A stretch of DNA of 64,000 nt. It comes from an uncultured virus (IMG/VR IMGVR_UViG_3300028797_000105). Its lineage: Duplodnaviria; Heunggongvirae; Uroviricota; Caudoviricetes. Positions 3,532-62,794 of the stretch are shown here, in pieces; the first letter of the stretch is position 1; each line of letters starts with the position of its first letter. The DNA is taken from IMG/VR virus record IMGVR_UViG_3300028797_000105. The stretch is one strand, 5' to 3'. The position numbers were made by a program, and so were the translations under genes. The notes beneath the pieces were generated by a model. That model saw only the letters and a program-made list of their open reading frames with translations. It did not search any database and was not told the origin of the DNA.

Positions 3532-3597
3532 CAAAAATACAACATTTTTCAATAGAAAACAACCTATATGAAAAAAGTTATCAACAAAGTTATCAAC
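3532..3597 (-). promoter_or_regulatory. Host-type (Bacteroidetes -7 box) promoter with upstream tandem 12-mer, copy 1 of 9
   Basis: TATTTTTG (TAnnTTTG) at 3532-3539 plus TGTTGATAACTT x2 about 44 nt upstream. Confidence 0.75.
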
Positions 3598-8907: not shown

Positions 8908-8912
8908 TTTTG

Positions 8913-9503
8913 TTATTTTTTTGATTTGAAAATTTCTTTCGGGATAATTGTGGTGTCCTTGATTATGTTTATATGGCAGGATTCCATTGTTCTTATGGCC
9001 GCACAATGGTTTTCAAGCGTGCTTCCTGCGCAGCATTTTTCAATGACATACACTTCTGAATCCAATATGCTCTTTACTGTCATAGCCGTACTCACGACAC
9101 AGATGTCCGTACAGAATCCGCAGATGAACACATTGTCGTTTCTGTCCGTTATGCCGATGTGCTTCCATAGTTCTACGGAGTCTGGTGCAAACCTTGATTT
9201 CTGGAGGAACGAAACGTTGCTGTGCCAATACAACGCTTGATATAAACTCTCGTTCAGTTTCCATCCCCAAGTTCCTTCTATGCAGTGTTTGACTGGGAGA
9301 TGCCTGCCTTCCGTTGTGTCCAGATAATGATGAACATAGTGCGTGTCCATTGTGCAGACTATCTTGTCAAAAACGACATTGTTGTCGTTATTGACAAGTT
9401 CCAATATGTGTTTTACTGTTTTACAACAATCTTCGTTTTGCAAAGCACCTTTGCCGTGGCAGAAGTCATTTTGCGCATCAACAATGATTAGGACGTTTTT
9501 CAT
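8913..9503 (-). CDS. pncA: Nicotinamidase (isochorismatase family)
   Basis: LIIVDAQNDF, DTH, HCIEGTWG, GFCTDICV; adjacent to pncB. Confidence 0.9.
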   Translation of the reverse strand: MKNVLIIVDAQNDFCHGKGALQNEDCCKTVKHILELVNNDNNVVFDKIVCTMDTHYVHHYLDTTEGRHLPVKHCIEGTWGWKLNESLYQALYWHSNVSFLQKSRFAPDSVELWKHIGITDRNDNVFICGFCTDICVVSTAMTVKSILDSEVYVIEKCCAGSTLENHCAAIRTMESCHINIIKDTTIIPKEIFKSKK

Positions 9504-16456: not shown

Positions 16457-16470
16457 AGCAGTCTCCTTTC

Positions 16471-17586: not shown

Positions 17587-18727
17587 TTTTACGCTGTTTA
17601 ATAAAGTTAATAATGTTGTTTTTTGTTAATTCGTCATTCATATCAGATTCCCATACTATGAATATGTCAAACCCCATTCTTTTTATGGCATTTATTTTTG
17701 TTTCATCATTTTTCCAAATTTCTTTTGCTGTTTTGTCGGTATACCAAAAGTTTGAAAAATTGGGTTCATAAAATTTTGGATTTGCGTGAAAAAAATCACC
17801 ATTAAATTCAATAGCAATTTTTAAGTCATAAATGAGAAAATCAATGAAATAATAATTTTTTGTTTGTTTATCATAGAATCCAAATTCTTTCTCTTTGCCA
17901 TAATATAATTTTAATCCATCAAACAAATCTTTATTATCATCTATCAGTTTTTGGAAGAAATTTGTTGCCATATTTGAAACAAATTTTGGATGCCGTTTTA
18001 TTGCGTCTTCGTATTTTGCAACACCTTCATTTTCACCATATCGAGTTATATAGTTTTCAAGAGATGTGCTCTTTTTCTTACATAAAGACTCCCAATATTC
18101 CAACCCATATTTTTCAATAACATATTCCTTTGATTTTGTCATACGTTGTTTTTCAACATATGCGTTATATATTTTTACGCCATTTTCTTTACCGTATTTC
18201 TCTATCAAATTATCTAATGTTACTGCACGTGATTTGTTATAATTTGAAAAATCATTAATGCTCCATCCATACTTTTTACTTTTATATTCAAATGTATTGG
18301 TGTATGCTTGTTTTTTTCTATATTCTTCAAACAGTTGGCTTCCTAAAGTTTCTCCGTATTTTTTAATGAAATTGTTTAATGTTATTGATTTGTTTTGATT
18401 TACTTTCTTTATAATATCATCTGATACATCAAAACCATATGCTGTGAATTTATTGCACGTGTTGAATATTCTTCCGACATTTTTATCTGAAAAATCGTTA
18501 TATTTTTCACACATACATTTTTCACATACGGTTAATTTATATTGTTGTCCAAGAATCATTTTGCTTGTCTTGTATGTCGTACCAATATATTTTATTGTAT
18601 TTTTGTTTACGTATGCTTTTGTGTTTTTGTACCAGATTGATTTTCCACAAATTCTACAATAAACAGCATCACCGTCAAATTTCTTTTGCATTTCTGTTAA
18701 TTCGTCTTGCGTTATATCTTTTTTCAT
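17570..18727 (-). CDS. Free-standing homing endonuclease (Vsr/DUF559-like C-domain, KYG repeats)
   Basis: FIDF..IAIEFNGDFFHANP..IVWESD; KYG-repeat N-region; lower GC; sits between the intein halves; TATAAATA at 18743-18750. Confidence 0.85.
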   Translation of the reverse strand: MKKDITQDELTEMQKKFDGDAVYCRICGKSIWYKNTKAYVNKNTIKYIGTTYKTSKMILGQQYKLTVCEKCMCEKYNDFSDKNVGRIFNTCNKFTAYGFDVSDDIIKKVNQNKSITLNNFIKKYGETLGSQLFEEYRKKQAYTNTFEYKSKKYGWSINDFSNYNKSRAVTLDNLIEKYGKENGVKIYNAYVEKQRMTKSKEYVIEKYGLEYWESLCKKKSTSLENYITRYGENEGVAKYEDAIKRHPKFVSNMATNFFQKLIDDNKDLFDGLKLYYGKEKEFGFYDKQTKNYYFIDFLIYDLKIAIEFNGDFFHANPKFYEPNFSNFWYTDKTAKEIWKNDETKINAIKRMGFDIFIVWESDMNDELTKNNIINFIKQRKNEKHI

Positions 18728-18768
18728 ATATGTATTTTTATATATTTATAAAGACACGGATTGCAATG

Positions 18769-19452
18769 CTACGAAATAACTGTTATGATTTTATCTGTTT
18801 TTAATATTTCTGACGGTTTACAAGAAATTCTGTTTTTATCACGAATAACAATAATTGAATGGTCATCCGTTACAATAACGTTTTTCCCACTTTTTGTTGT
18901 TATTTTCCATTTTTTCTTTTTTACTTTATGCCGTATTATGCGTTTTGCTTTTGCAAAATATACGTCATTGCTTTCTGATTGATTTAATATTGGTATTGGG
19001 CAAAACACACTTTCGTGACCAGACATAGTATTTCCTGCATTTCCATATTTGACGCAATCATTATACAATTCTTCTATTGTTCGGTCTTTATCTTTACAAT
19101 GGATAATTGTATTTTTATCACAACTATCGGTATCAATATAGACGGTCACTTGTTTTTTTACTGGTTTTGTAACCGTGATACCCATTTTTTCGTGCGTTGC
19201 TTTGTCATCGTACCAATGATTAAGAAAATAATCATTGATGTTAGATTCTGCGTACAGAATGGCGTTTTTCCCTTGTTTTGTGATACATTCAGCCAAATCC
19301 TTGTCAAAAAAATACATATATGGATTGGCGAGTCCACCGTACATCGAATTAATATATATCTTACTTCCCTGTTCCCAATTATGGTACTTTGTGTAGATAG
19401 CATCTAATTCTGCACGTTTTTCGTTAATTTTTTTAATTACTTCATCTGTCAT
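18769..19452 (-). CDS. Family B DNA polymerase fragment 2 (motifs B and C) fused to a 118-aa N-intein
   Basis: QGSKIYINSMYGG, CITKQGK, YIDTD, then intein SCDKNTII...VTDDHSII. Confidence 0.92.
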   Translation of the reverse strand: MTDEVIKKINEKRAELDAIYTKYHNWEQGSKIYINSMYGGLANPYMYFFDKDLAECITKQGKNAILYAESNINDYFLNHWYDDKATHEKMGITVTKPVKKQVTVYIDTDSCDKNTIIHCKDKDRTIEELYNDCVKYGNAGNTMSGHESVFCPIPILNQSESNDVYFAKAKRIIRHKVKKKKWKITTKSGKNVIVTDDHSIIVIRDKNRISCKPSEILKTDKIITVIS

Positions 19453-19466
19453 AATCGTACAAATTT

Positions 19467-20705
19467 TTAATTAGTTAATAATGTTTTTATATAATCTTTT
19501 GTTGCAGTATTGTTCCGCAGCCATTCAGATTCCCATATTACAACAAGTGTTATTCCTTTTCTTTTTGCTTTTTCTATTTTTGATGAATCTCGTTTCCATA
19601 TTTGTTTAGCTGTGAGCTGGTTTGACGGGTTTATATCATTTTCATCATATATGGATGGATTCATATGCCAATAGTCGCCATTAAACTCTATGCCAAGGTT
19701 GTATTCTGGTATATAGACATCCATCTCACACCCAATGGTTGCTCTGTCATTTTCAATAATCTTACCATTGTATATCTCGTGAATATAAGCAACCAAATCT
19801 TTTTCAGTTGTTGAAAATTTAAACATATCGTTTCCGTACCGTTCATATTTGGTCTTGTTTATTTTTTCAACAATATCTTCGGAATAAGATGGGTTTTCTA
19901 CGCCATATTTTTCTATGTTTGTCTTTTTGATTTTATTTTTAATTGTTTCTGATTGGAATGGGTTTTCTACACCATATTTTTTCAAAAACACTTGCTTCTT
20001 CTTTTCTTTTACAATATCTGAAGAATTTATGCTTTTTGTTCCATATTTTTTAACGCAGGTGTCAATAGATTTTTGTTTAACTTTATTTGATTGCATAGGA
20101 TATTCAACGCCAAGATTTGACATATTGGTATGTTTTGCTTTTTCTTTGACAGAATCAAGTGTTACTGGATATTCAACACCATATCTATTGATGTTTGTTG
20201 CTTTTACTTTATTTTGAATATCTTTTGATTGCGTAGGACGTTCAACTCCGTATTTTTTAATATTTGTGCTTTTTATTTTTTCTTGTATTTTATATGATTG
20301 TGTAGCATATTCAACTCCATAATTTTTCATCATAGTTTGTTTTCCGAGTTCTCTGATAGAATTGACTTGTAATACGGAATCGGTTCCATATTTTTCGTTG
20401 ACTGTGTGCTTTGTTTTTTCTCTAACTTCTTCGGAATTGCTTGAACATTTAAGGCTGCAATATTTGGAATAACCAGAAAAAAAGTTTAAGAACTTGCATC
20501 GTTTGCCGCAGTTTGCGCAAACGCCAAGCAATAATCGTTCATCATCATTAAGATAATGATATGCTTTTTGCTTGAATGAAAATTTGTCTGGAAATGTCAT
20601 ACCACAGATTTCCGCATATTCATTCGGAAATCTTAATCTGAAGGATTTTTCCATCAGATAGTTCGGGTGTTCTTTTATCTGCTGTTTAATTGCTTCCTTT
20701 GTCAT
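19467..20705 (-). CDS. Homing-endonuclease-like protein with about 25-aa KYGVExPxQS repeats and a Vsr-like C-domain
   Basis: CxxC..CSLKC; about 7 repeats; EMDVYIPE..GIEFNGDYWH..VIWESEW; TATAAATA at 20728-20735. Confidence 0.82.
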   Translation of the reverse strand: MTKEAIKQQIKEHPNYLMEKSFRLRFPNEYAEICGMTFPDKFSFKQKAYHYLNDDERLLLGVCANCGKRCKFLNFFSGYSKYCSLKCSSNSEEVREKTKHTVNEKYGTDSVLQVNSIRELGKQTMMKNYGVEYATQSYKIQEKIKSTNIKKYGVERPTQSKDIQNKVKATNINRYGVEYPVTLDSVKEKAKHTNMSNLGVEYPMQSNKVKQKSIDTCVKKYGTKSINSSDIVKEKKKQVFLKKYGVENPFQSETIKNKIKKTNIEKYGVENPSYSEDIVEKINKTKYERYGNDMFKFSTTEKDLVAYIHEIYNGKIIENDRATIGCEMDVYIPEYNLGIEFNGDYWHMNPSIYDENDINPSNQLTAKQIWKRDSSKIEKAKRKGITLVVIWESEWLRNNTATKDYIKTLLTN

Positions 20706-21741: not shown

Positions 21742-23148
21742 ATGAAATCATTATCCAAGACCTATAAGTTCGTCAATGAATCAAAGAAAATTGACACCGT
21801 GCAGCTCTTGTATTTGAGCTCAATAACCAATTCAACTTTCTGCAAAATGCTGAAAGACAAGTGTAAAGAATATGGTATAGCATTCTTGTACGCCAATCCA
21901 GAAACGGCTGTTCTTGAAAAGAAAAACGACAAGGACTTCATTCTCGTTGATGGTGACAAAAGTTCAGAAATCGGAACAAATAACACCATTATTCTGCCAC
22001 GTCTTACGATTTTGAAAAACTCCCGCACAAAGAACTTTTTGAAAGAATTTGAAAATCGTGGTTTCTTTGTAATCAACAGCCTTGACAGTTATGAGAACTG
22101 CGAGAACAAATACACCACATACAAGGTTCTTTCCGCAGAGAGCATCCCGACACCAGCAACGACTGTTGTCACATCTGACGATATGGGAAGGCTTGAAAAG
22201 AAAGTGAATTTCATTGGTGGAAAATTCCCGATTGTCTGTAAACTTCTTGACGGTAAGAAAGGCATTGGCGTGTTCATTATAGATTCATATATGAGCCTCA
22301 AATCAACGCTTGAAACTATGTTCAAACTTGTTCCTAATGCTGAAATTCTGTTGCAGAACAAGATTGAATCAGACTATGACCTGCGTATTCACGTATTTAA
22401 TAAATCATACAATAGGGTGTCCAATAACACGGATGCTTTTGAAATCATAGGTGTTATGCGCCGTAACAAGATTGATGGCGATTTCCGCACCAATTTCAGC
22501 CTTGGCGGTACTATTGAGAAGTTTGAGCTTACTGACGAGCAGAAAGAACTTGCTATAAAGACAGCAGCCGCAGTAAAATGTCGTTGGTGCGGTGTTGATA
22601 TGATTGTGGATAAGAATACTGGCGACAACTATATTATTGAGGTGAATGCTTCGCCTGGCGTGAAAGGCATTTCCTCTGTTTCTGAAGTTTCTCCAGTGAA
22701 CTACATATTTGACTTCTTGAAAAAGTTCAAGTACATTACCAACAATTTCACAGTTATCGGAAGCGTTGAATCCGCAAACCTTGTGTTCGGTGATGTTGAG
22801 TGTCCGTCAGACATTATGTTTGATATGAATACCGATATAAATGTGATTGAAACAAAGTCTGCTTCATACAATAAGGATGCCAATAATGTTTCGTTCTGTG
22901 TCGGCGAGAACACTGTAACAAGACCAGTGGTCGGAACGCTCATTGAAACTGATATGAGCCGCAGTTATCTTGTTACTGGCCGTATAGACTTCAATGATGC
23001 TACATACAAGAATGTTATGTATAAGGTGAAAGTTAATCAAGAGGGCGAAGGTAAGATTGTTCTTGGCAACGCATTCCTTTCATTGCTCGGCAATATGGTG
23101 TCAATCGACCCGAACAACACATATCTCGTTACTGACAAACTTCAATAA
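21742..23148 (+). CDS. RimK-family ATP-grasp ligase with a C-terminal RimB/aspartyl-protease-like domain
   Basis: ENKYTTY, PIVCK..GKKGIGV, DLRI, DFRTNFSLGG, CGVD, IEVNASPG; TATAAATA at 21710-21717. Confidence 0.88.
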   Translation: MKSLSKTYKFVNESKKIDTVQLLYLSSITNSTFCKMLKDKCKEYGIAFLYANPETAVLEKKNDKDFILVDGDKSSEIGTNNTIILPRLTILKNSRTKNFLKEFENRGFFVINSLDSYENCENKYTTYKVLSAESIPTPATTVVTSDDMGRLEKKVNFIGGKFPIVCKLLDGKKGIGVFIIDSYMSLKSTLETMFKLVPNAEILLQNKIESDYDLRIHVFNKSYNRVSNNTDAFEIIGVMRRNKIDGDFRTNFSLGGTIEKFELTDEQKELAIKTAAAVKCRWCGVDMIVDKNTGDNYIIEVNASPGVKGISSVSEVSPVNYIFDFLKKFKYITNNFTVIGSVESANLVFGDVECPSDIMFDMNTDINVIETKSASYNKDANNVSFCVGENTVTRPVVGTLIETDMSRSYLVTGRIDFNDATYKNVMYKVKVNQEGEGKIVLGNAFLSLLGNMVSIDPNNTYLVTDKLQ

Positions 23149-42714: not shown

Positions 42715-44859
42715 TCACAAAGCATTTAGCTTGTCTCGGTAATAGGTTTCGCTTCTCAACGATTCTTTTCTTTTCTTCTCGCTGACATTCATATAAAGTT
42801 CTTTCATTTTGTCTTTCGGCATAGAAACATTCTCAAACAAATACTTTGATGATTGCACGAACATATTATACCATTCTGGGTCTTTCAATGTATCGCCAAC
42901 CCGTTTCTCACATTCGTCAATTATGTTTCTAACAAATTTGGATATTCTTGCATTTGTGTCATTATCATTAACAAACATACCGCCATTTGTGCTTTCTGGA
43001 CTTTTGAGATATGTATACACACAAGATTCAAGCGCATTATGCATACCATATGTTCTGACCATTTCAGATGCGTATGTCGTGGCATCGGCCAAATCAATGC
43101 TTGCGCCAGACGTATATTCTTCATCGCCAAACACAAATTTCTCCGCAACATATCCAGCAAGACATACTTGTATGTTTGCGAGATATTCCGCTTTGCTGAT
43201 AAAATGGTTATCGTCTTTCGGCGGCATCATAAACCCGTTTGCGTTTCCAGCAGCGCAGTTTGAAACAAGTTTGTCTGGCATCTTTCCGAACAGTTTTGCA
43301 TACATAACAAAGTGCATACTTTCGTGTACTGCGGTGAGTGCTTGCCGTTCATCACGCTTGTTTTTTCGCAAGTCCTCAATTTTCAATTCCTGCTTGAACT
43401 CAAACTTGTTTGTCTTGTCGCTGTCATTATATTTTATGTCGGCAATCACATAGTTTTCCTTGTATGACATAAGTATTGATGAAATTTCGTATTTGTTATT
43501 GTCATACGCTTGCAGAACGATACGTGGAAGTTTGGTTTCAACAATCTCATATATGCTTGAAAATACTGGACGTGTACCTTGTGTCGGGAATACGCCATCC
43601 TTGTAAATGACATCAATTATGCTGTCATCAAATTCAATGTTGATTCCGAAGTTGTCGTACACACGCTTCTTGTACTGGCCAAGACGGAGTTTGATTATGT
43701 TGTTGAAATTCTCGGATGAGAATGACGGGTACATAAGCATAATGTTTCCAAGGCGGGCAATCTGCTCGTTTCTGAAACGCTCTTGCAATGCCTCCTTTAT
43801 GTCAACCATACTCAACTTGCTTGTAATTTCGTGGAACTGGTCGGCATCCATATCTGGATTCATATCGTAACTCATTGTGTATGCCTCGTCCACATTTCCG
43901 ATAACGAAAACAAGAGAGCCGCTATAGTCGTGGTAATAACCGCCCTTTGACTTGGTTTCAAATTTGTAGAGCAACTGCAAAAGACCTTTCATATCAAGGT
44001 TTTTGAGTTTGTCCTCAAACAGCATAAGCAATGTGTTGTCATCAATGGTCAGATTATGAATTGTGAACAATGTGCTTGCCGTCTGTGCGGTGAACCACAA
44101 GTTTGGTTCGTTTTTGATATAGCGGTCGGCAATATCGCACCAGCAGCTTGTGTTGTCGTGCTCTTCTATCACCTTGCCGTCATAGTTAAAGTATCGGTCT
44201 ATGAGCATACGCATATCCTGCGCTGTGTTGAGCAAGTCATCAATGCTTTTCTCGTCTTTGTCATCACCAGGTTTCAACTGGCTACCGAACACTTTGTCAA
44301 TACCACAAAGTTTTCCGTTTTGGATAGTAACGCCAGACTTTTCAAGGAACGATGTGAGATACAGTATGCTTAAAAAGTGATTCATCACATAGCGTTCAAT
44401 CTTTGCTCTGAACACGCCGCTGTCTATAAGTTCCCATATCGTTTTCAATGCGGTCTTGTTGTCTTTTTCCTTTCCGTCCTCCGATTTTGTTGCGGCGAAC
44501 TGGAACTCGTCAAATATGAAAACTGGGTTTCTCTCTTTGTTTGATATGTTTTCCGTTATATTGTCCTCAAGTTCGGTTGAGTTGTCCTCATCAAGTTTTG
44601 CGAGATTATACATAACGGTTCTGTCGTTCACTTCAAGCAGTTCGCAAAGTCTGTTCACAAGGCTTGTCTTTCCGCAGCCAGTCAGCCCCCACAAGTTTAT
44701 CACAAGCGGTTTTGACACCATTTCTGGAAACAGATACCATACACGAATGTTGGAGATGATGCTGTCAATGACTGAATCAATGCCTATGAATTCGGCTTTG
44801 AGCTGATTTTGTGCGTTTATGAGTCGTTCCTCTTTTTCTTTGATGTTTTCTATATTCAT
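42715..44859 (-). CDS. AAA+ ATPase fused to an M41 (FtsH-like) metallopeptidase, no TM segment
   Basis: GLTGCGKT, FIFDEFQ, AVHESMH, LAGYVAE, GASID. Confidence 0.85.
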   Translation of the reverse strand: MNIENIKEKEERLINAQNQLKAEFIGIDSVIDSIISNIRVWYLFPEMVSKPLVINLWGLTGCGKTSLVNRLCELLEVNDRTVMYNLAKLDEDNSTELEDNITENISNKERNPVFIFDEFQFAATKSEDGKEKDNKTALKTIWELIDSGVFRAKIERYVMNHFLSILYLTSFLEKSGVTIQNGKLCGIDKVFGSQLKPGDDKDEKSIDDLLNTAQDMRMLIDRYFNYDGKVIEEHDNTSCWCDIADRYIKNEPNLWFTAQTASTLFTIHNLTIDDNTLLMLFEDKLKNLDMKGLLQLLYKFETKSKGGYYHDYSGSLVFVIGNVDEAYTMSYDMNPDMDADQFHEITSKLSMVDIKEALQERFRNEQIARLGNIMLMYPSFSSENFNNIIKLRLGQYKKRVYDNFGINIEFDDSIIDVIYKDGVFPTQGTRPVFSSIYEIVETKLPRIVLQAYDNNKYEISSILMSYKENYVIADIKYNDSDKTNKFEFKQELKIEDLRKNKRDERQALTAVHESMHFVMYAKLFGKMPDKLVSNCAAGNANGFMMPPKDDNHFISKAEYLANIQVCLAGYVAEKFVFGDEEYTSGASIDLADATTYASEMVRTYGMHNALESCVYTYLKSPESTNGGMFVNDNDTNARISKFVRNIIDECEKRVGDTLKDPEWYNMFVQSSKYLFENVSMPKDKMKELYMNVSEKKRKESLRSETYYRDKLNAL

Positions 44860-49868: not shown

Positions 49869-50165
49869 TCATAAGTATATTTTATTTTCAAATCCTGGTA
49901 TTTCGATACTGCAATATCCGACAAGCAGCACATTATTGTTCGCTCTGAAAAAATCGTGATTAAGGATTGTTATTGTTGGAAATATCTGCAAGATTTCAAT
50001 TTTATCTTCAGTCACCTTTTCATCACGGAATTTCTCACGATTATACACGGTTTTTGTGCTGCGAATAATGCAGAAGAAATAAGTGCCTTTCCTTTTCAAG
50101 AAATTGACCGTATCTTCATTCAACGGCATTGGTTTTTTAGGATATTCAAACTCAACTTTCATCAC
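49869..50165 (-). CDS. Hypothetical protein
   Basis: 98 aa, overlaps the Thg1 stop. Confidence 0.5.
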   Translation of the reverse strand: MMKVEFEYPKKPMPLNEDTVNFLKRKGTYFFCIIRSTKTVYNREKFRDEKVTEDKIEILQIFPTITILNHDFFRANNNVLLVGYCSIEIPGFENKIYL

Positions 50166-51013
50166 TCTGGCATTCTAATCCATTTTTCAATATGTTCTCG
50201 GTCTTGTGTCAGAATTGGCATATTGTAGTCAATGCCCCATCTTGAACGTGTAGCACCATCTTCCTCGTAAGTGGCCTTGTAGCAGGAACATCCACGTTTG
50301 TATCTGACTGGGTAATTGTTCCAGTTCACATTATGCCTTTCCATAAGCATATCTTGGATGTCGCTGTTGTTCTTTTTGTGAAGTTCGCTATGGCTGAAAA
50401 ATGAGCGGCCAACCATTTCAACGCTGTTGCGGGTTGCGTCCTGCTGTCTCCATAAAACGCAGTTTGTCACCTCCTCAACTGGAACATTGAAACATCTCGC
50501 ATCAAACATAGCTGGTTTCTCAAGACATTTTGCATATTTGGCATACAGTTGTTCAGCCTTTGCAAAATCATCAATGTAGTACGTTTTCTTCAAACTTTCG
50601 CCGTCAGTGCCAGCGCAGTTGTATAAAACCTCATAGAACTTGGAGACCTCGCTCTTGAAGTTCATATTGAAATATGCGGTTGCCATAGATGCCGCAATAC
50701 TGCAAACTTTCTGCACCTCATTGTCAAACCAAGCACTGCTGTTCAGTTTCTGGTAGTCGTTAAGAACGAGTGTGATTTCATCGGATTGTGTGTAACCGAA
50801 AACACAACCTTGCACATTCTCGCACAGCCGCAGCATAGTCATATCCATAGCGTTTGACAGAACACGGTCAAACGGCTTGTTAAAACCTTTGGTGAATGAA
50901 TGGAACGCCTTGCCGTCAATTCTGATAATGACTGGTGTTCTTCTCAACATTTTGAATTTGTAACGGGCTTCATAGTTTTCTTTCATTCTGTCGCCCAAGC
51001 TGTCTTTATTCAT
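50162..51013 (-). CDS. thg1: tRNA(His) guanylyltransferase / Thg1-like 3'-5' polymerase
   Basis: IRIDGKAFHSFT, YTQSDEI, FDARCF, WRQQDATRNS. Confidence 0.95.
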   Translation of the reverse strand: MNKDSLGDRMKENYEARYKFKMLRRTPVIIRIDGKAFHSFTKGFNKPFDRVLSNAMDMTMLRLCENVQGCVFGYTQSDEITLVLNDYQKLNSSAWFDNEVQKVCSIAASMATAYFNMNFKSEVSKFYEVLYNCAGTDGESLKKTYYIDDFAKAEQLYAKYAKCLEKPAMFDARCFNVPVEEVTNCVLWRQQDATRNSVEMVGRSFFSHSELHKKNNSDIQDMLMERHNVNWNNYPVRYKRGCSCYKATYEEDGATRSRWGIDYNMPILTQDREHIEKWIRMPE

Positions 51014-54836: not shown

Positions 54837-56246
54837 TTATTGTTTGTTATCGTTTTTGTATTTTTCCAGAATGTATGCAACCACTTTGTCGTGGTCATTT
54901 TCAAGGTTTCCGTCAAGAATGGCGTTTTTGATATCCTCCTTGATAACACCAACCATACGGCAGGGTGTAAGATTGAACATAGCCATAATCTCATCGCCGT
55001 TTACTGGCGGCTGGAAGTTTCTGATGTGGTCTCGTTCCTCAAGGTCAATGAACTTTTCTTTCAAATGCTCAAACCCATCACGAATACGCTTTACCTTCGC
55101 ATCGTTCTTTGAAGTCACATCACCCATACACAAAAGCATAAGGTCTTCAAGTTCATCGCCAGCGTCAAACATAAGCCTGCGGATTGCGGAATCTGTTACA
55201 TCCTCAACGATTGTTTGCGGTCGCATATGCATCTCAACGAGTTTGCGAACAACTTTCATATCGTCAAGTGGAAGTTTCAGTTCATTGAAAATGCCTTCAA
55301 CCATTTTAGCACCGACAGACTCGTGGTATCTGAAAGTCCAAGTGCCGTCCTCAAACTTTCTTGTCTTGGTTTTACCAATGTCGTGCAGCAAAGCAGCCCA
55401 ACGGACATTCAGACTTCCTCCGTGGTCGGCCACATATTTCAAAACGCCGAGCGTATGGAAAAAGTTGTTCTTATGCGATACCGATGCTTGTGTTTTAACA
55501 TCGTCAAGTGCGGAAACACTTGGCAAGAACATATTGAGCAGACCAGTGTCGTGCAATGCGTGGATTCCCCTCGCAGGATTTGGCGACATAAGGATTTTGT
55601 TTAATTCTGTTGTTATGCGCTCGGCTGATATGATTTTCAAACGGCCAGCGTTACGCTTGATGCCTTCATAAGTTTGTTCGTCAATATCAAAATTGAATCT
55701 GACAGCAAAACGGATTGCACGAAGCATACGCAACGGGTCATCTGAAAACGTAATGTCTGGGTCAAGCGGAGTGCGGATAATGCCTTTTGCAATGTCTTGC
55801 TGCCCATTGAACTTATCAACAATGCCATCACGACCTTTGTTCACGCAATATGCGATTGCGTTGATTGTCAAGTCACGTCTGTTGAGGTCATCGTCCAGCG
55901 TTCCGTTTTCAACAACTGGCTTCCTGCTACCACGGTCATAACTTTCTTTGCGTGCCCCGACAAATTCGGCCTCAACACCTTTGTAAGTAAATTGTGCAGT
56001 TCCAAAATTCTTAAACTCACGGACTTCAGAAACACCGAGTTTCTTTGCGGCAAGGTTTGCGACACAAATACCAGCACGGACATTTTTGCTTTCTGTAGGA
56101 TTTCCGACACACACAAAATCTATGTCATCTGATGGTGTTTGCATAATCATATCACGGACATAGCCGCCTACTATGTATGCGGAATATCCGAGTTCGTCTG
56201 CTGCCTCGCCGACAGTCTTAATGATAATTTCCTTGTTGTTTTTCAT
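54837..56246 (-). CDS. cca: tRNA nucleotidyltransferase (CCA-adding, class II) with HD domain
   Basis: VGGYVRD, DIDF, RRDLTINA, DDPLRMLRAIRF, SAERI, LLHDIGK. Confidence 0.93.
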   Translation of the reverse strand: MKNNKEIIIKTVGEAADELGYSAYIVGGYVRDMIMQTPSDDIDFVCVGNPTESKNVRAGICVANLAAKKLGVSEVREFKNFGTAQFTYKGVEAEFVGARKESYDRGSRKPVVENGTLDDDLNRRDLTINAIAYCVNKGRDGIVDKFNGQQDIAKGIIRTPLDPDITFSDDPLRMLRAIRFAVRFNFDIDEQTYEGIKRNAGRLKIISAERITTELNKILMSPNPARGIHALHDTGLLNMFLPSVSALDDVKTQASVSHKNNFFHTLGVLKYVADHGGSLNVRWAALLHDIGKTKTRKFEDGTWTFRYHESVGAKMVEGIFNELKLPLDDMKVVRKLVEMHMRPQTIVEDVTDSAIRRLMFDAGDELEDLMLLCMGDVTSKNDAKVKRIRDGFEHLKEKFIDLEERDHIRNFQPPVNGDEIMAMFNLTPCRMVGVIKEDIKNAILDGNLENDHDKVVAYILEKYKNDNKQ

Positions 56247-56266
56247 TTTTGCTATTTTATTACGCT

Positions 56267-56334
56267 GCAAAAATACAACATTTTTTGATACTATATAATA
56301 TGTTCATAAAAAAGTTATCAACAAAGTTATTAAC
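56267..56334 (-). promoter_or_regulatory. Host-type promoter with tandem 12-mer, copy 8
   Basis: TATTTTTGC plus AAGTTATCAACA-AAGTTATTAACT. Confidence 0.75.
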
Positions 56335-56813
56335 TATTTCTGCTCATACTTTGTTCTTGTCTTTTTAAGTTTTTCCCAGTCATAGTTGCGAAGTCCGTCA
56401 AGTCCGTTGATTGTGGCATACCTTCCGTTTTCAATCATAAGGCTTGTGATAAACTGCGGAACTTTATATTCTGGGTCTGGTTCGTGCAAGTGCGGGTGCG
56501 GTATGTCAACCACAAACACCTTTTTGCCAGAAGCAAAAGCATATCCAGCCTCCCAAGAGCACCCAGCGGTTGTCCGTTCACGTCCGTAATTGAGGAACAC
56601 AACATAATCGCAATCGTCAATGGCCGATAGGTCGTTCTGGAAAACCATAAGTCCCCATTCATTGTTTGGATAATCCCAAGCGTTCTTTATGACGTGCTCC
56701 ATAGGAACATACACATCACGGAATGTTTCACGCAATATCTGCGCCGCACCAATAATGCTTTCTCTGAAATCCGCATCCATAGAAGATGCCAAGTATATTT
56801 TTTCGTCTCTCAT
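56334..56813 (-). CDS. Nucleoside 2-deoxyribosyltransferase / N-glycosidase family protein
   Basis: KIYLAS, FQNDLSAIDDCD, GCSWEAGYAFASGK. Confidence 0.85.
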   Translation of the reverse strand: MRDEKIYLASSMDADFRESIIGAAQILRETFRDVYVPMEHVIKNAWDYPNNEWGLMVFQNDLSAIDDCDYVVFLNYGRERTTAGCSWEAGYAFASGKKVFVVDIPHPHLHEPDPEYKVPQFITSLMIENGRYATINGLDGLRNYDWEKLKKTRTKYEQK

Positions 56814-58021: not shown

Positions 58022-58711
58022 TTATTTTATCAGTTGTGTTTTATGAACTGCCAAATGGTTTGCGACACTTCCCCAATCAACAAATATATAATATCCCAAT
58101 TGTTCTATAAGACCGAACAGACTGTTTCTTTTTTCTTCAGTCATACCAAAAACACCAACATCGAAACATTCAAATTGAATTGGCGGGTAATCGTTTCGCT
58201 TTATTGTTTCAATCCCACCACGAATAACATTTTCCTCCATACCTTCAACATCAATTTTGATAAAACCTATATCATTCAAGTTGTATGAATCTAATGTTTT
58301 ACAAGGAACAACGTGCCAATAATGACCGTTATTTGTTAGCACCTCACATTCGCCTTCAACATCGGATAACGCTACTTGGAATGTTTCGGTCGTTCCGCAT
58401 TTGTCGTGATTTAGTAAATTTGCGTGACAATTCCACAAGCACTCCTTATCTGGTTCAAACAAATATGCACCAGCGAAAGGTAGGCAGCATACGTGTTCTG
58501 CAATACCACCGCCAATGTCAATCATCTTTTTTGTGAAGTCAAAATAACCATCAGCATTATTCAATATTTTATTGATGACATTAACATCAATACAGTAACA
58601 GTCAACATAACCGCTATTCCAAGATATAAAAGCGTCAAGCGCATTTCTTGTGAAAAGCATACAGCCATTAAGACTTTTTTCTGTTTCTTGATATTTTTTT
58701 GAATATAACAT
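58022..58711 (-). CDS. FkbM-family SAM-dependent methyltransferase
   Basis: MIDIGG, FEP, VALSD, TLDS, FIKIDVEGME. Confidence 0.85.
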   Translation of the reverse strand: MLYSKKYQETEKSLNGCMLFTRNALDAFISWNSGYVDCYCIDVNVINKILNNADGYFDFTKKMIDIGGGIAEHVCCLPFAGAYLFEPDKECLWNCHANLLNHDKCGTTETFQVALSDVEGECEVLTNNGHYWHVVPCKTLDSYNLNDIGFIKIDVEGMEENVIRGGIETIKRNDYPPIQFECFDVGVFGMTEEKRNSLFGLIEQLGYYIFVDWGSVANHLAVHKTQLIK

Positions 58712-59448
58712 TATCTGTAATCTTTTATTGTAATATCGTTTGCGTTTATTTTTTGTGCAGTTCGTTGCCCAAGTTTGGCGAGTTTTTCAAATTCATACCA
58801 GTCTATCGGATTTTTAAACGACATAATGATTCCGCCATCTCTTGCAACATCTCTGACCTCATCAGTTTCAACAATGGTAAGTAAATCTTGTCTATCCTTT
58901 CTCCTACTCAACTTATGCAGGTAATCGTTTTCGTATTTTTCGGCAATATTACCAACGAATATTGGCGTGTTGCCAGCAATCATTCCACAAGAATGGTCAT
59001 ACAATTTCTCTCTGTTGACAAATATAATATCCTTGTTGGTAACGAATGTGATATAGTCAGCCTTGCCACGAACCCATCCAGTTCCCCCATATATATTTGC
59101 GAACTCAATATATTCTATGTTATAGTTGAAGTCATCATCTTGGCGGCGCAAGCGGCGTGGGCCTTTCACATCCATTGTTGTCCTTCTATCATCACCAGAA
59201 AACTTTGCCAACAAATCTATATGACAAATCCTATCAAGGTCTTCTTTTGTATATTTCCTGCCACGTCTGTCGTGAGTCTGCCCGTCAATGGTTATGTTAT
59301 CTGTCGGCAAATCGTTGATATGCGTGCATTTTGCACCAAATACATTTATCAAAACCTTTTGCACAAACCTCTCATAAAACCTTCCCATTGTCAGAAAATC
59401 TTGTATCTGCGAATCAAGAAAACCGAGATTGTCGTAATGCTGTTCCAT
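58711..59448 (-). CDS. Putative PD-(D/E)xK nuclease
   Basis: GRFYE...HIDLL...MDVK...IEF...GW..GKADY pattern. Confidence 0.65.
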   Translation of the reverse strand: MEQHYDNLGFLDSQIQDFLTMGRFYERFVQKVLINVFGAKCTHINDLPTDNITIDGQTHDRRGRKYTKEDLDRICHIDLLAKFSGDDRRTTMDVKGPRRLRRQDDDFNYNIEYIEFANIYGGTGWVRGKADYITFVTNKDIIFVNREKLYDHSCGMIAGNTPIFVGNIAEKYENDYLHKLSRRKDRQDLLTIVETDEVRDVARDGGIIMSFKNPIDWYEFEKLAKLGQRTAQKINANDITIKDYR

Positions 59449-59464
59449 AATACCATTTTGGATG

Positions 59465-59581
59465 TGGGGGTGGGTAGAGTCGAACTACCATATCAACGGT
59501 TTACAAGGATTTTTTGCTGCTTGGTTCTTTTGCAAGAATCTGACATCATCCGTTTGCCTAAACCAATTCGGCTACACCCCC
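59465..59581 (-). ncRNA. tRNA-like RNA 1 (117 nt) with a 50-nt expanded anticodon loop; tRNA-Tyr(GTA) if the insert is spliced
   Basis: Acceptor GGGGGTG/CACCCCC+A, D arm GCC-GAATTGGTTTA-GGC, stem AACGG/CCGTT, T arm GGTAG-TTCGACT-CTACC; no encoded CCA. Confidence 0.8.
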
Positions 59582-59605
59582 ATTATTGTTATATAATAAA
59601 AATTT

Positions 59606-59779
59606 CTATTTTTTGTTTGAGTGTTCGTTATTTTCTTTCTGTTGTCTCAAGAACTCAATATATTCTTCAGCAGTTGGTGAATCCACATCAAGTTCCTCAA
59701 TCTCGTTCACCTTTTCAAGAAACTCGTCATCACTCATATTATTCACGAGTTTTTCAAAATCATCAGACATCTTGCTCAT
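59606..59779 (-). CDS. 57-aa acidic protein (not in ORF track)
   Basis: MSKMSDDFEKLVNNMSDDEFLEKVNEIEEL...*. Confidence 0.55.
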   Translation of the reverse strand: MSKMSDDFEKLVNNMSDDEFLEKVNEIEELDVDSPTAEEYIEFLRQQKENNEHSNKK

Positions 59780-59999
59780 TTTTCAATTCCTCTATTTTTA
59801 AAACTATTGTGGAAAACAATGCTGTGTTTGTATCTATAATGGAAGATAACACATCCAGCACCAGCCTTCCGTATTGTTCTGTTTTCCACTTCGCCATTGC
59901 TTTCATAGCGTTTGCCGTTTCGCAATTTTTATTTACATTGATACAGTTACAGCCGCACGTACTGCAATAGTTCTTTTGTATAAATTCGTTATCTGTCAT
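59763..59999 (-). CDS. Small protein with CxxCxC..C
   Basis: Likely start MTDNEFIQKNYCSTCGCNC; the longer track ORF overlaps tRNA-like RNA 2. Confidence 0.55.
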   Translation of the reverse strand: MTDNEFIQKNYCSTCGCNCINVNKNCETANAMKAMAKWKTEQYGRLVLDVLSSIIDTNTALFSTIVLKIEELKNEQDV

Positions 60000-60035
60000 T
60001 TTATCCGTAGTTTCTATTTCGTAGTTTTTATTCCG

Positions 60036-60147
60036 TAGGCACGGGCGGACTCGAACCGCCGTACAAAAGTTTTTCTTAAATATCGCTGTCAGTTTCTTTG
60101 CAAGAAACATTTTCCGACTTTCGCCTTACCAACTCGGCCACGTGCCT
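60036..60147 (-). ncRNA. tRNA-like RNA 2 (112 nt) with a 46-nt expanded anticodon loop
   Basis: Acceptor AGGCACG/CGTGCCT+A, D arm GCC-GAGTTGGTAA-GGC, stem AAAGT/ACTTT, T arm GGCGG-TTCGAGT-CCGCC; no encoded CCA. Confidence 0.8.
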
Positions 60148-60153
60148 TACCGT

Positions 60154-61767
60154 TTATTGCTGGTCTCCGTAATTGTCGGCCATTTCAATATCAACAACGC
60201 CCTTGTCAATGTCAGCGGATTCTTTTTTCAAGAACGCAATGGTTTTCAGTTTGAAACATTCTTTAACTGGGTCGTTCTCAATACGAAGGCAGATGCCCTC
60301 ACGGGGAACTTTGATTTTGCACATAGGTTCGTCAAGTTCCATACCAAGCGTCTGCTTGTCGTTCTTCATAGCCTCAAGCACGGTTTCGTTCCAATGGTTT
60401 GCCTTGTCAATGTCTGGATAAAGGTCAGACAACTTGCCGTGATAGATTAACGGGTACGGCATAATGTTTTCTGAAACCTCTGGATATACCTTCAACAAAT
60501 CGTCCGTGAACTTGATGACCTCATCAATGTCATACTCACGATGCGTGCCGTCTTCCAGTTTTTCGCTAACTCGGTAAATCATCAGCTTGTTCTTGCCTTT
60601 CTCACATCCGTAGTCATAATTCTTCTGAATCATTTTGTCAGAGCCATTGAGGTAGCCGACAATCTCACCATAGATTGTAATATTCTGCGGGATTTTGCCT
60701 TTCAACAGTTCGTTGTACTCACCCCACACATCAACAGAGTAGAAGCCTCCGTTCACCTGCTTGTTGATATATTGGTTTTTAATAACTGTGCGAGAAGAAT
60801 ACACATTGTAGTATTCGGTATCAAAATTCTTGAACTTGCGGTTTTCCAGTTTGGTTGATTTCTTTTGCAACTTGGAAATTTCCATTGTGTCGGAATCAGA
60901 CAAACCAGTTTCTTCGGAACGCTTGTTGATACGACCGATTTGACGTTCAATATTTTTGATTTTGCGGTCTTTGATTCCGTTGAAGAAATCACGAATCTTG
61001 TTCATAAGCGTTGGCTTCTTGACAAGAATGTTGCCCAAAACAATAGATGTTCCGTGTACTTTTACAGACAGATAAACAACGCTTTCTGGATTGAGTCTCC
61101 ACATATTGCTATTAAGCTGGGCCGTGTCGTAATGAAAGGCAAATTCACCTTCAAGCATACGGTCAAACCTCTTGATTTTGTTGTTTCTCTTTCCGCTGCC
61201 GCCGCCACTTCTCACTGGATTGGTTTTTGGTACATACGCCTTGATAAACAACTTATCGTTGATTGTGTCAAAATCAAACGGAACGAAATTACCGTTTTCG
61301 TCATACTTGACATAATCGGCAAGATTTACGCCAGAAAGGTCTGCATCCCAGTTCACAAATGATTCAAGACGCATAAGAACGCCCATAGACGGACAGCCAC
61401 GAAGACGAATCATTTTGACACGGCCATTCTTGTTGAAATAACCTACCATTTTCTTCGCTTCGTCAGACTTTCCTTCAGCCATAAGTTTTTCAACTTCCTC
61501 GTGGTTTGCGTTGCGTTCACGCTCACCAATCTCATACATATTATTGACTGAAAGGAACTGTGAGTTAAGTTCGGTTTCGTTCTTGCAGTAAATCATATAA
61601 TCGCCTTCCTTAACGTCATTCTTGTTTACTACAACAGAAAAGCCGTCAATGATTACCTGCTTCAAGTTGTCGGAGTTCTCAATATCCTTGAGTTCCCCTA
61701 CCCTAACAATGGTAGCAGAATACTCCTGCTTGAAATTTTCTGATTTTGTAAAAATGTTTTTCATCAC
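60154..61767 (-). CDS. ATP-dependent RNA ligase (Rnl2/DRB0094-like) with an N-terminal OB-like domain
   Basis: Motif I KVHGTS, IYGEIVG, REGICLR, FKLK; N-terminal RVKMIRLRG..SMG. Confidence 0.85.
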   Translation of the reverse strand: MMKNIFTKSENFKQEYSATIVRVGELKDIENSDNLKQVIIDGFSVVVNKNDVKEGDYMIYCKNETELNSQFLSVNNMYEIGERERNANHEEVEKLMAEGKSDEAKKMVGYFNKNGRVKMIRLRGCPSMGVLMRLESFVNWDADLSGVNLADYVKYDENGNFVPFDFDTINDKLFIKAYVPKTNPVRSGGGSGKRNNKIKRFDRMLEGEFAFHYDTAQLNSNMWRLNPESVVYLSVKVHGTSIVLGNILVKKPTLMNKIRDFFNGIKDRKIKNIERQIGRINKRSEETGLSDSDTMEISKLQKKSTKLENRKFKNFDTEYYNVYSSRTVIKNQYINKQVNGGFYSVDVWGEYNELLKGKIPQNITIYGEIVGYLNGSDKMIQKNYDYGCEKGKNKLMIYRVSEKLEDGTHREYDIDEVIKFTDDLLKVYPEVSENIMPYPLIYHGKLSDLYPDIDKANHWNETVLEAMKNDKQTLGMELDEPMCKIKVPREGICLRIENDPVKECFKLKTIAFLKKESADIDKGVVDIEMADNYGDQQ

Positions 61768-62383: not shown

Positions 62384-62794
62384 TTATGATTCATCTTTTT
62401 TGTTATATTTGTTGAATTTGAAGTGGTCATAAAATTCTGGCTGTTTCCAGTAATTTATTGATTTGACCAATTCATTAACATCGTGCATCATTGTGTCATA
62501 ATCTTCAAACGCATCTTCCGAATATATGCCGATACAGAACTGTGGCGTTCTTTCAACATCTATTGTTTCAATAGTCACATCCCAAAGTGATTTTGCGGGC
62601 AGATACCTTCTGTCCAGTGCCCTTGCAATAACTGCCATTGAATATGGGTTGTCTGTATAAAGATACACAACATACTTGCGTTTCAAATGGCCACAGCAAG
62701 ATTCAAATGTTCTTACGTCTGGCAAGGTGTTGAGGGCATCGCACAATGGTATGCACTCCTTGTCCATAAAAATGTCGTACTTGATTTCTTCCAT
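62384..62794 (-). CDS. Hypothetical protein with a TFESCCGH motif
   Basis: MDKECIPLCDALN...TFESCCGH, reminiscent of the TYW3/Taw3 N-terminal T.SSC.G motif. Confidence 0.65.
   Translation of the reverse strand: MEEIKYDIFMDKECIPLCDALNTLPDVRTFESCCGHLKRKYVVYLYTDNPYSMAVIARALDRRYLPAKSLWDVTIETIDVERTPQFCIGIYSEDAFEDYDTMMHDVNELVKSINYWKQPEFYDHFKFNKYNKKDES

What the first reader, a model, noticed from the sequence alone, without database searches (positions are those of the whole stretch)
59465..60147. Two tRNA-shaped RNAs carrying the same structured insert in place of the anticodon loop
Seen: both RNAs have intact acceptor, D, anticodon and T stems with different stem sequences, but loops of 50 and 46 nt. 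RNA1 loop: ATGATGTCA-GATTC-TTGCAAA-AGAACC-AAG-CAGC-AAAAAATCC-TTGTAAA. RNA2 loop: CGGAAAAT-GTTTC-TTGCAAA-GAAAC-TGA-CAGC-GATATTT-AAGAAAA. The shared core TTCTTGCAAA(A)GAA..C-NNN-CAGC is conserved although the tRNA stems are not, which argues for selection rather than decay. In RNA2 the core is a perfect 5-bp stem with a 7-nt loop (TT-GCA-AA), i.e. an anticodon stem-loop mimic with a Cys anticodon. Both loops end in G-N-A-A-A (GTA-AA, GAA-AA), the 3' part of a normal Tyr or Phe loop. Established: bacterial tRNA introns are typically self-splicing group I introns, far longer than 40 nt. Inference: either a short protein-spliced tRNA intron class in a phage, or an elongated tRNA mimic acting as a decoy or ligand, e.g. 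against host anticodon nucleases.
Basis: partly seen in the sequence, partly recalled or inferred. Interest (0 to 1): 0.9.

Follow-up and report, generated by a model that had tools for sequence, protein, structure and literature searches.

The report
Short hairpin introns in phage tRNAs
Two tRNA genes of a large rumen phage are each split by a roughly 40-base insert from a previously undescribed family of short tRNA introns found in many giant phages, which probably have to be cut out and resealed by proteins, a route not known in bacteria.

Summary
Rfam's tRNA model scores both minus-strand genes (59465-59581, 45.2 bits; 60036-60147, 50.4 bits), with 50- and 46-nt anticodon "loops".

The shared core is not a Cys anticodon mimic. 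It is a 7-bp hairpin with a short, variable loop, then 3 nt and CAGC(A/G)A. A covariance model of it hits the window only at these two places (40.7 and 39.9 bits; next 15.3).

I found about 45 distinct tRNA-embedded copies in large phage and metagenome contigs and none in 185,579 cellular genomes.

In 29 of 46 parsed genes, one deletion restores a perfect anticodon arm. In 27 of those 29 the insert lies in the anticodon stem between nt 28 and 29. Exons are better conserved than inserts. So these behave as introns, but they are neither group I nor bulge-helix-bulge (0 of 29).

In the window, RNA1 becomes tRNA-Tyr(GUA). RNA2 keeps GAA but lacks U33 at every junction.

An Rnl2/Rnl5-like RNA ligase gene ends 6 nt before RNA2. 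The cutting enzyme is unknown, and there is no RNA evidence of splicing.

The scan has noted other hairpin mini-introns in phage tRNAs on other DNA, but not this family.

The parts
59465..59581 (-). RNA1: tRNA gene with a 50-nt anticodon 'loop'. After the insert is removed it reads as tRNA-Tyr(GUA) with a short (class I) variable region.
   Evidence: RF00005 45.2 bits. ARAGORN -i: Tyr(gta), 43-nt intron. Deletion scan.
59507..59549 (-). RNA1 insert (43 nt) if the junction is 31/32. Junctions 32/33 to 34/35 give AUGUAAA; both products are canonical Tyr-GUA loops, so the exact boundary is undetermined.
59523..59540 (-). RNA1 core hairpin: 7-bp stem (one A.C mismatch) with a GCAA loop. The CAGC motif follows at 59516-59519.
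   Evidence: Alignment A1 and model R1. Covariation.
60036..60147 (-). RNA2: tRNA gene with a 46-nt anticodon 'loop'. The anticodon is GAA (Phe-like) at every junction tested, but position 33 is A or G, never U.
   Evidence: RF00005 50.4 bits. Deletion scan.
60078..60116 (-). RNA2 insert (39 nt) if the junction is 31/32. The boundary is undetermined because GAAAA occurs at both ends.
   Evidence: Relatives' variants.
60092..60108 (-). RNA2 core hairpin: perfect 7-bp stem with a GCA loop. The CAGC motif follows at 60085-60088.
60154..61767 (-). ATP-dependent RNA ligase (537 aa) with an N-terminal OB domain, Rnl2/Rnl5-like. It ends 6 nt upstream of RNA2. Candidate sealing enzyme.
   Evidence: phrog_968 3.4e-43 and PF21189. 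TIGR02306, N-terminal part only. Homologues carry PF09414, and one is fused to an AAA_33 kinase and an HD domain.
58711..59448 (-). 245-aa protein (P0001) with a PD-(D/E)xK nuclease fold, starting 16 nt downstream of RNA1. Candidate homing or junction nuclease; its role is unproven.
   Evidence: Synteny with G001. AF2 model pLDDT 90.7. VIA Z 8.1 to I-Ssp6803I and 7.7 to Hjc. Invariant H76, D78, K95, E115.
59606..59999 (-). Two small ORFs (57 and 78 aa) between the two tRNA genes, with no family assignment.
54837..56270 (-). CCA-adding tRNA nucleotidyltransferase with an HD domain (tRNA 3'-end repair).
   Evidence: PF01743, PF12627, PF01966; phrog_2244; TIGR02692 1.2e-100
50162..51013 (-). Thg1-like tRNA-His guanylyltransferase / 3'-5' polymerase (tRNA 5'-end enzyme).
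   Evidence: PF04446 2.4e-32; phrog_4717 5.2e-91

Best explanation
The two inserts belong to a family of short (39-55 nt) intervening sequences in tRNA genes of large rumen and gut phages. I found no description of this family.

Each member has:
- an AU-rich 5' segment of about 7-15 nt;
- a 7-bp hairpin (consensus GAUUCUU / AAGAAUC) with a 3-4 nt loop;
- three further nt, then CAGC(A/G)A;
- an AU-rich tail of 12-18 nt.

In most members the insert splits the 5' strand of the anticodon stem between nt 28 and 29. In the window's two genes and their closest relatives it sits at the 5' edge of the anticodon loop.

Shown: the family exists, the hairpin covaries, precise deletion restores canonical tRNAs, and exons are under stronger constraint than inserts.

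Inferred: the insert is removed from the RNA by proteins. An endonuclease not yet identified would cut both ends. The phage Rnl2/Rnl5-like ligase, encoded directly upstream of RNA2, would reseal the exons, after end healing if the cuts leave cyclic-phosphate and 5'-OH ends. For the 28/29 members the excised product would be a nick inside a duplex. I recall that as the preferred substrate of nick-sealing ligases of this type.

RNA1 would mature to tRNA-Tyr(GUA). RNA2 would mature to a GAA tRNA with an abnormal position 33, and whether it decodes is uncertain.
For: - **Both are tRNA genes with inserts:** RF00005 scores 45.2 and 50.4 bits with 46-50 nt insertions.
- **Homologous inserts exist in relatives found through the ligase gene:** 6 long tRNAs of 111-129 nt in 2 of 8 loci.
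- **Spread:** 23 of 41 pattern loci in IMG/VR are tRNA-embedded, as are 45 of 48 in metagenome contigs, many of them the same records.
- **Anticodon arm restored:** of 46 parsed cloverleaves, 29 have one unique deletion giving 5 of 5 stem pairs. For 27 of those 29 the junction is compatible with 28/29. The anticodons are UGG 11, GUC 5, UUU 4, UUG 3, GUU 2, and UCC, GAU, AGG, CAU 1 each.
- **Hairpin covariation:** 49 distinct sequences, 97.1% of cells paired, 5 of 7 pairs with changes on both sides, 0 of 500 shuffles as high.
- **Exons more conserved than inserts:** true in 70 of 75 same-anticodon pairs. Several pairs have identical exons but inserts only 80-88% identical. The pairs are not independent.
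- **Junction signals:** exon ...C(28/29) G(27/29) | U(26/29) A(25/29)... and ...U(21/29) | G(26/29). The exon context C27-G28|G29 occurs in 0 of 36 uninterrupted tRNAs of phage G001.
- **Ligase family present:** matched in 5 of 5 insert-bearing phage records; the G009 match is weak, E 6.2e-4. One homologue is fused to a polynucleotide-kinase-like domain and an HD domain.
- **Tight gene spacing:** the ligase gene ends 6 nt before RNA2, and no terminator-like site lies between them.
Against: - No RNA evidence. One metatranscriptome run and three other runs showed no joint, and the RNA contigs cover the flanking genes but not the tRNAs.
- No endonuclease identified. The neighbouring PD-(D/E)xK protein family is found in only 2 of 5 insert-bearing phage records.
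- For the loop-type members no single junction rule gives a canonical loop in all. The 31/32 rule gives U33 in 5 (RNA1, L032b, L219, L184, L127) and not in 8, RNA2 among them.
- In relatives of the window phage the 3' GAA of RNA2 is shifted by two substitutions.
- Phage G001 also carries uninterrupted Pro(UGG), Gly(UCC), Asp(GUC), Phe and Tyr genes, so the interrupted copies are not needed merely to complete the set.
- No intron-less allele was found for two predicted junctions in IMG/VR.
Confidence: 0.6

Rival explanations
1. The insert is kept. The RNAs work as tRNA-shaped molecules with an extra structured arm, for instance as decoys or ligands for host anticodon nucleases or for the phage repair enzymes, and do not decode.
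For: RNA2 and its group (L032a, L034a) and the third group (L032c, L034c) yield no canonical anticodon loop at any simple junction. G001 has ordinary copies of the same isoacceptors. The hairpin stem is conserved in sequence, as a binding site would be. The genes sit among tRNA repair genes.
Against: In 29 of 46 genes the flanks fit together into a perfect anticodon arm with normal loops. A decoy does not need that. The anticodons are diverse and the exons are better conserved than the inserts.
Confidence: 0.2
2. A selfish DNA mini-element (hairpin-bearing, site-specific, like small palindrome-associated elements) has inserted into tRNA genes and inactivated them. The copies are decaying pseudogenes.
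For: The sequence just 5' of the insert is conserved (C-R-C-G) and is not seen at that place in uninterrupted tRNAs (0 of 36). The insert is orientation-specific. HNH and PD-(D/E)xK nuclease genes lie near some copies. Some loop-type copies look degenerate.
Against: Exons are more conserved than inserts (70 of 75 pairs). One pair across the insert changes on both sides: U28-A42 in the Ile gene against G28-C42 elsewhere. No empty sites were found. There is no second hairpin or terminal repeat, and copy number is low (1-5 per genome), all within tRNA genes.
Confidence: 0.1
3. The insert is a small self-cleaving or self-splicing RNA that removes itself without proteins.
For: Some nucleotides are strongly conserved (UUCUUG, AAGAA, CAGC). 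Both junctions have fixed dinucleotides, G|U and U|G.
Against: No Rfam ribozyme family matches at E<=10 in the 1-kb region. There is only one conserved helix, the flanks are variable and AU-rich, and no conserved pairing brings the two junctions together. From general knowledge, 40-55 nt is far below any known self-splicing intron.
Confidence: 0.05

Closest known systems
'Enigmatic' introns in tRNA genes of Lak megaphages (Devoto et al. 2019, PMC6784885; passages of the main text and Table S6 searched)
   Same: Intervening sequences in tRNA genes of very large gut phages. They are not classifiable as known intron types, one of them sits in tRNA-Tyr(GTA), and the splicing route is unknown.
   Different: The Lak introns listed are mostly 79-141 nt (a few shorter) and are placed at 37/38-type positions by eukaryote-mode tRNAscan. 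The strings 'cagcaa' and 'ttcttg' occur 0 times in that table, so the sequence family differs. The present family is 39-55 nt, has a defined hairpin-CAGCAA core, and lies mostly in the anticodon stem at 28/29.
Archaeal and eukaryal protein-spliced tRNA introns (bulge-helix-bulge, EndA/Sen endonuclease plus RtcB or Trl1 ligase), including non-canonical positions in Thermoproteales and DPANN
   Same: Short introns, some at non-canonical positions including the anticodon stem. A cut-and-ligate logic, with an RNA ligase gene at hand.
   Different: No bulge-helix-bulge: 0 of 29 genes have a 4-bp central helix in either geometry. No EndA family hit among the window's proteins. The host domain is Bacteria, on the evidence of phage hallmark genes. 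The conserved element lies inside the intron rather than at the exon-intron junction.
Group I introns in bacterial and phage tRNA anticodon loops (my recollection: cyanobacterial tRNA-Leu(UAA) and tRNA-fMet)
   Same: They interrupt the anticodon region of tRNA genes in bacteria and phages. A PD-(D/E)xK homing endonuclease (I-Ssp6803I) is linked to one of them, and it is the best structural match of the neighbouring protein P0001.
   Different: Group I introns exceed 200 nt and have a catalytic core. Here the inserts are 39-55 nt with a single hairpin, and there is no Rfam intron hit.
Phage T4 tRNA repair (Pnkp plus Rnl1 resealing anticodon-loop breaks made by host PrrC); recalled, with the review PMC3400036 seen only in a search listing
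   Same: A phage RNA ligase acting on tRNA anticodon arms. Here it is accompanied by a CCA-adding enzyme and Thg1, so the locus may serve repair as well as splicing.
   Different: T4 repairs host tRNA cut by a defence nuclease. Here the phage's own tRNA genes carry an insert that must be removed, and the ligase is Rnl2/Rnl5-like with an N-terminal OB domain rather than Rnl1.

Membership tests
tRNA (Rfam RF00005) | Cloverleaf scoring above the family's gathering score (29 bits) | tested here: met
   45.2 and 50.4 bits, model positions 1-71
tRNA (Rfam RF00005) | 7-nt anticodon loop with U33 and a purine at 37 | tested here: inconclusive
   Not met as encoded: the loops are 50 and 46 nt. After in-silico deletion RNA1 gives UUGUAAA or AUGUAAA, which is canonical. 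RNA2 gives AAGAAAA, CAGAAAA or CGGAAAA, none with U33.
Hairpin-CAGCAA tRNA intron family (defined here, model R1) | 7-bp hairpin, 3 nt, then CAGC(A/G)A, embedded in the 5' half of a tRNA anticodon arm | tested here: met
   R1 scores 40.7 and 39.9 bits; the next window hit scores 15.3. The two window copies were among the 25 training sequences, so they match partly by construction. The other 23 come from other phages.
Bulge-helix-bulge (EndA-spliced) tRNA introns | Two 3-nt bulges holding the splice sites, separated by a 4-bp helix | tested here: not met
   0 of 29 family members with a unique junction have 4 of 4 central pairs in either geometry; 3 of 29 reach 3 of 4. The window's own junctions are ambiguous and were not among the 29.
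Bulge-helix-bulge (EndA-spliced) tRNA introns | An EndA/Sen-type splicing endonuclease is encoded | tested here: inconclusive
   No Pfam hit among the 30 window proteins or in the rerun (4 of those 6 proteins were already). P0001 matches tRNA splicing endonuclease subunits only at Z 4-5, below its matches to DNA nucleases. Only 64 kb of the phage is in hand.
Group I intron | Catalytic core P3-P9 and length above about 200 nt | tested here: not met
   Inserts are 39-55 nt. No Rfam intron match at E<=10.
YrlA / Y RNA-like tRNA mimics | Match to the Rfam family | tested here: not met
   No such hit at E<=10 in 59300-60300
ATP-dependent RNA ligase, Rnl2/Rnl5-like (the 60154-61767 protein) | Nucleotidyltransferase domain of the PF09414 family together with the PHA02142/DRB0094-type OB domain | tested here: inconclusive
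   PF21189 1.1e-08 and phrog_968 3.4e-43. TIGR02306 matches residues 20-67 only, at 28 bits against a cut-off of 151. PF09414 is recorded for some close homologues, not for the query itself. No PDB sequence match.
PD-(D/E)xK nuclease fold (P0001) | Restriction-endonuclease-like core with a D...(D/E)xK motif | tested here: met
   Model pLDDT 90.7. VIA Z 8.1 to I-Ssp6803I (rmsd 3.3, 124 aligned), 7.7 to Hjc, 7.4 to NhoI. The tool notes that Z under 8 can be a common arrangement. H76, D78, K95, E115 are invariant and D93 nearly so across 91 sequences. The substrate (DNA or RNA) was not tested.

The most novel reading that the evidence does not exclude
Large phages of gut and rumen bacteria run a protein-based tRNA splicing pathway that is independent of both group I ribozymes and the archaeal/eukaryal BHB-EndA system. 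A nuclease not yet identified recognises a hairpin-CAGCAA signal inside the intron. A phage nick-sealing RNA ligase rejoins the anticodon stem. The phage keeps a second, intron-gated set of tRNAs whose maturation depends on its own enzymes, for instance to time translation or to keep a tRNA reserve out of reach of host anticodon nucleases.
Probability: 0.35. Interest if true: 0.9.

Novelty: new variant of a known kind. Interest (0 to 1): 0.78.

Why it matters
From general knowledge, bacteria and their viruses are held to have only self-splicing introns in tRNA genes.

This family is short, conserved, non-group-I and non-BHB. It sits in the anticodon stem, is spread over many giant phages, and occurs alongside RNA ligase, CCA-adding and Thg1 genes. 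It therefore makes a concrete question testable: does enzymatic tRNA splicing exist in the bacterial world?

The material for that test is now defined: a sequence model (R1), about 45 natural substrates, junction consensus signals, and a candidate ligase.

It also explains why standard tRNA finders miss these genes: ARAGORN in default mode found none in the window. Phage tRNA counts are therefore underestimated.

Tried and rejected
- **Cys-anticodon mimic.** Rejected: the hairpin loop varies among homologues.
- **First motif scan of IMG/VR.** 31 loci, none in a tRNA; all are chance or coding matches.
- **INPHARED phage genomes.** No blastn match to 59000-61000.
- **Whole genome of the window.** Not held.
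- **Expression and splicing.** One metatranscriptome run (X23), one doubtful RNA run and two DNA runs were laid on 59000-60700. No joints were found, and the RNA contigs do not cover the tRNAs. This gives no verdict either way.
- **Intron-less alleles.** Two junction patterns gave 0 matches in IMG/VR. Scans with the 3' halves of RNA1 and RNA2 found no orthologue without an insert.
- **Cellular genomes.** 35 pattern loci. The best R1 score was 26.2 bits, and the only tRNA was an archaeal gene with its own intron. The pattern is narrow, so divergent members could be missed.
- **BHB geometry.** 0 of 29.
- **A closing helix between the intron ends, or a helix across the 5' junction.** Seen in MFE folds of some members (L073, L092, L084, L096) but not generally.
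- **P0001 as the general splicing nuclease.** Its family is present in only 2 of 5 insert-bearing records. It has no Pfam, PHROG or NCBIfam name.
- **Kinase or phosphoesterase in the window.** None found among the 65 ORFs scanned. A phosphoesterase (phrog_547) does lie beside the ligase in G008.
- **Literature.** Five full-text searches found no description of this family.
- **Earlier notes of this scan.** No look-alike by sequence or by the motif word.

Full report
**1. What is in the window**

The window is part of a large tailed phage. It has 37.6% G+C and 89% coding under the standard code. It carries:
- a split family-B DNA polymerase with intein and homing-endonuclease inserts;
- a DnaB-like helicase;
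- a prohead protease and lysis genes.

DNA runs holding it are labelled bovine gut or gut metagenomes.

Two tRNA-shaped genes lie on the minus strand. RNA1 is at 59465-59581 and RNA2 at 60036-60147. Rfam's tRNA model matches both from position 1 to 71, at 45.2 and 50.4 bits, and skips 46(+4) and 45(+1) nt inside the anticodon loop. ARAGORN in default mode reports no tRNA at all in the 64 kb.

**2. What the shared core is**

I used the neighbouring RNA ligase protein to fetch 8 related phage loci. Two of them (L032, and L034 from a 413-kb complete phage, G001) hold three long tRNAs each (111-129 nt), directly after the ligase gene. Their inserts share the window's architecture, but the hairpin loop differs: GGAA, GAAA, GUAU, GAAC, GUA and others. 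The stem changes in a compensating way, for example UUCUC/GAGAA against UUCUU/AAGAA.

So the core is a 7-bp hairpin with a 3-4 nt loop, followed by 3 nt and CAGC(A/G)A. It is not a 5-bp stem carrying a Cys anticodon loop.

- On 25 sequences the helix is 94.9% paired, with 4 pairs changed on both sides.
- On 49 distinct sequences it is 97.1% paired, with 5 of 7 pairs changed on both sides, and 0 of 500 shuffles reach this. That second alignment was fitted to the model.
- Model R1 finds only the two known sites in the window (40.7 and 39.9 bits; next 15.3).

**3. How widespread the family is**

| Collection | Pattern loci | tRNA-embedded |
|---|---|---|
| IMG/VR | 41 | 23, from at least 10 large contigs (23-413 kb) |
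| Metagenome contigs (stricter pattern) | 48 | 45, many the same records |
| 185,579 bacterial and archaeal genomes | 35 | 0 |

- In the cellular genomes the best R1 score was 26.2 bits. The single tRNA there is an archaeal gene with its own intron.
- R1 hits per phage record: G001 5, G006 4, G007 4, G008 4, G009 1. The matches I inspected all lie in tRNA genes.
- Divergent variants exist: a different hairpin sequence still followed by CAGCAA, or CGCGA in place of CAGCA.

**4. Why I call them introns**

I parsed 46 cloverleaves and tried every deletion that contains the core.
- In 29 genes one deletion is uniquely best, giving a 5-of-5 anticodon stem.
- In 27 of those 29 the junction is compatible with nt 28/29, that is, inside the 5' strand of the anticodon stem. 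The other two are at 27/28 and 29/30.
- The restored tRNAs read UGG (11), GUC (5), UUU (4), UUG (3), GUU (2), and UCC, GAU, AGG, CAU (1 each).
- They look like ordinary bacterial tRNAs.
- Junction consensus: exon C(28/29) G(27/29) | intron U(26/29) A(25/29), and intron U(21/29) | exon G(26/29).
- Inserts are 45-55 nt in this class, the 55-nt Thr gene among them.
- Exons are more conserved than inserts in 70 of 75 same-anticodon pairs. Several pairs have identical exons and inserts only 80-88% identical. The pairs are not independent.
- The exon context C27-G28|G29 occurs in 0 of 36 uninterrupted tRNAs of G001.
- Interrupted tRNAs with different anticodons are somewhat more alike (mean identity 0.70) than unrelated tRNAs (0.60). 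This suggests a shared scaffold that diversified together with its intron.

**5. What kind of intron it is not**
- Not group I: the size is wrong and there is no Rfam hit.
- Not bulge-helix-bulge: 0 of 29.
- Not the Lak megaphage introns of Devoto et al. 2019. These are the only report of unexplained phage tRNA introns that I found. Their table has no 'cagcaa' or 'ttcttg', and most of its introns are 79-141 nt.
- Five literature searches found no description of this family.
- Earlier notes of this scan describe other hairpin mini-introns in phage tRNAs on other DNA. None has this sequence.

**6. The window's two genes**

These are of the loop type: the insert follows the 5' strand of the anticodon stem.

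*RNA1.* Every junction from 31/32 to 34/35 gives a canonical Tyr-GUA loop. Orthologues end in GUAAA as well (L032b, L034b, L219). In close relatives the 5' segment varies (GAU to GGU). So the anticodon comes from the 3' side.

*RNA2.* GAAAA stands at both ends of the insert. All junctions keep anticodon GAA, but position 33 is A or G. In relatives two substitutions shift the 3' GAA.

Across the loop-type genes, the 31/32 rule gives U33 in 5 and not in 8. The exact splice sites of the loop type, and the decoding competence of RNA2, remain open.

**7. Enzymes**
- **Ligase.** The ligase gene (60154-61767) ends 6 nt before RNA2. It matches phrog_968 and the PHA02142/DRB0094-type OB domain. Homologues carry PF09414, and one is fused to an AAA_33 kinase and an HD domain, the make-up of a heal-and-seal enzyme. 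The family is matched in 5 of 5 insert-bearing records, weakly in G009.
- **Other tRNA enzymes.** A CCA-adding enzyme with an HD domain and a Thg1-like enzyme lie 4-10 kb downstream. In G006 and G008 a CCA enzyme and a second ligase-like protein lie in the same region. In G008 a phosphoesterase also stands beside the ligase.
- **P0001.** The protein right after RNA1 (P0001) keeps this place in G001. It is a confident PD-(D/E)xK fold, closest to the tRNA-gene homing endonuclease I-Ssp6803I and to Hjc resolvases. Its family occurs in only 2 of 5 insert-bearing records. I therefore read it as a possible homing or junction nuclease, not as the general splicing enzyme.
- **The cutting activity is unidentified.**

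**8. Verdict**

The inserts belong to a widespread family of short phage tRNA introns that I found described nowhere.

Removal by proteins, with sealing by the adjacent ligase, is the best-supported mechanism (0.6) but is inferred, not shown. A retained functional insert (0.2), a selfish DNA element (0.1) and self-cleavage (0.05) remain as rivals.

Noticed in passing
window 14981-20705 (-): The family-B DNA polymerase is in several pieces (491, 371 and 227 aa ORFs). Between them are intein-splicing-domain fragments and two endonuclease-like ORFs (385 aa, phrog_22677; 412 aa, DUF7487 / homing endonuclease phrog_3339).
   Followed up: no
window 3597-4805 (-): The DnaB-like helicase carries a weak intein-splicing-domain match at its N-terminus.
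   Followed up: no
window 1258-2661, 7714-9006, 21742-23148, 42715-44859, 56334-56813: Auxiliary genes: SAM synthetase, nicotinate phosphoribosyltransferase, a RimK-like ATP-grasp enzyme, an FtsH-like AAA+/M41 protease, and a nucleoside 2-deoxyribosyltransferase.
   Followed up: no
L070 (G001:12000-28000): The 413-kb phage G001 has a roughly 15-kb array of 36 uninterrupted tRNAs plus three interrupted ones (Pro-UGG, Gly-UCC, Asp-GUC). Each interrupted gene duplicates an uninterrupted isoacceptor. The Asp copy has a different hairpin (CCUC-GUAA-GAGG) that R1 did not pick up.
   Followed up: partly
L095:531-569 and L187:24-63: A further interrupted tRNA-like gene has an unrelated 8-bp AU-rich hairpin that is still followed by CAGCAA. 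The family is therefore wider than the pattern used.
   Followed up: no
P0228 (907 aa homologue of the ligase): A natural fusion of this ligase type with a P-loop kinase (PF13671) and an HD domain (PF01966).
   Followed up: no
P0060 (329 aa relative of P0001): One member of the P0001 family is fused to a Macro-like 'phosphatase' domain (phrog_335, 4.8e-51).
   Followed up: no
window 62384-62794 (-): A 136-aa Cys-rich protein directly upstream of the ligase region is conserved at the same place in L032 and L034 (51-57% identity). It has only a faint TYW3-like match (E 0.023).
   Followed up: partly
window 59585-59763 and 60142-60639: Contigs of a bovine-gut metatranscriptome run (X23) cover the small ORF between the tRNAs and the 3' part of the ligase gene at 95-99% likeness. 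The run may contain DNA.
   Followed up: no
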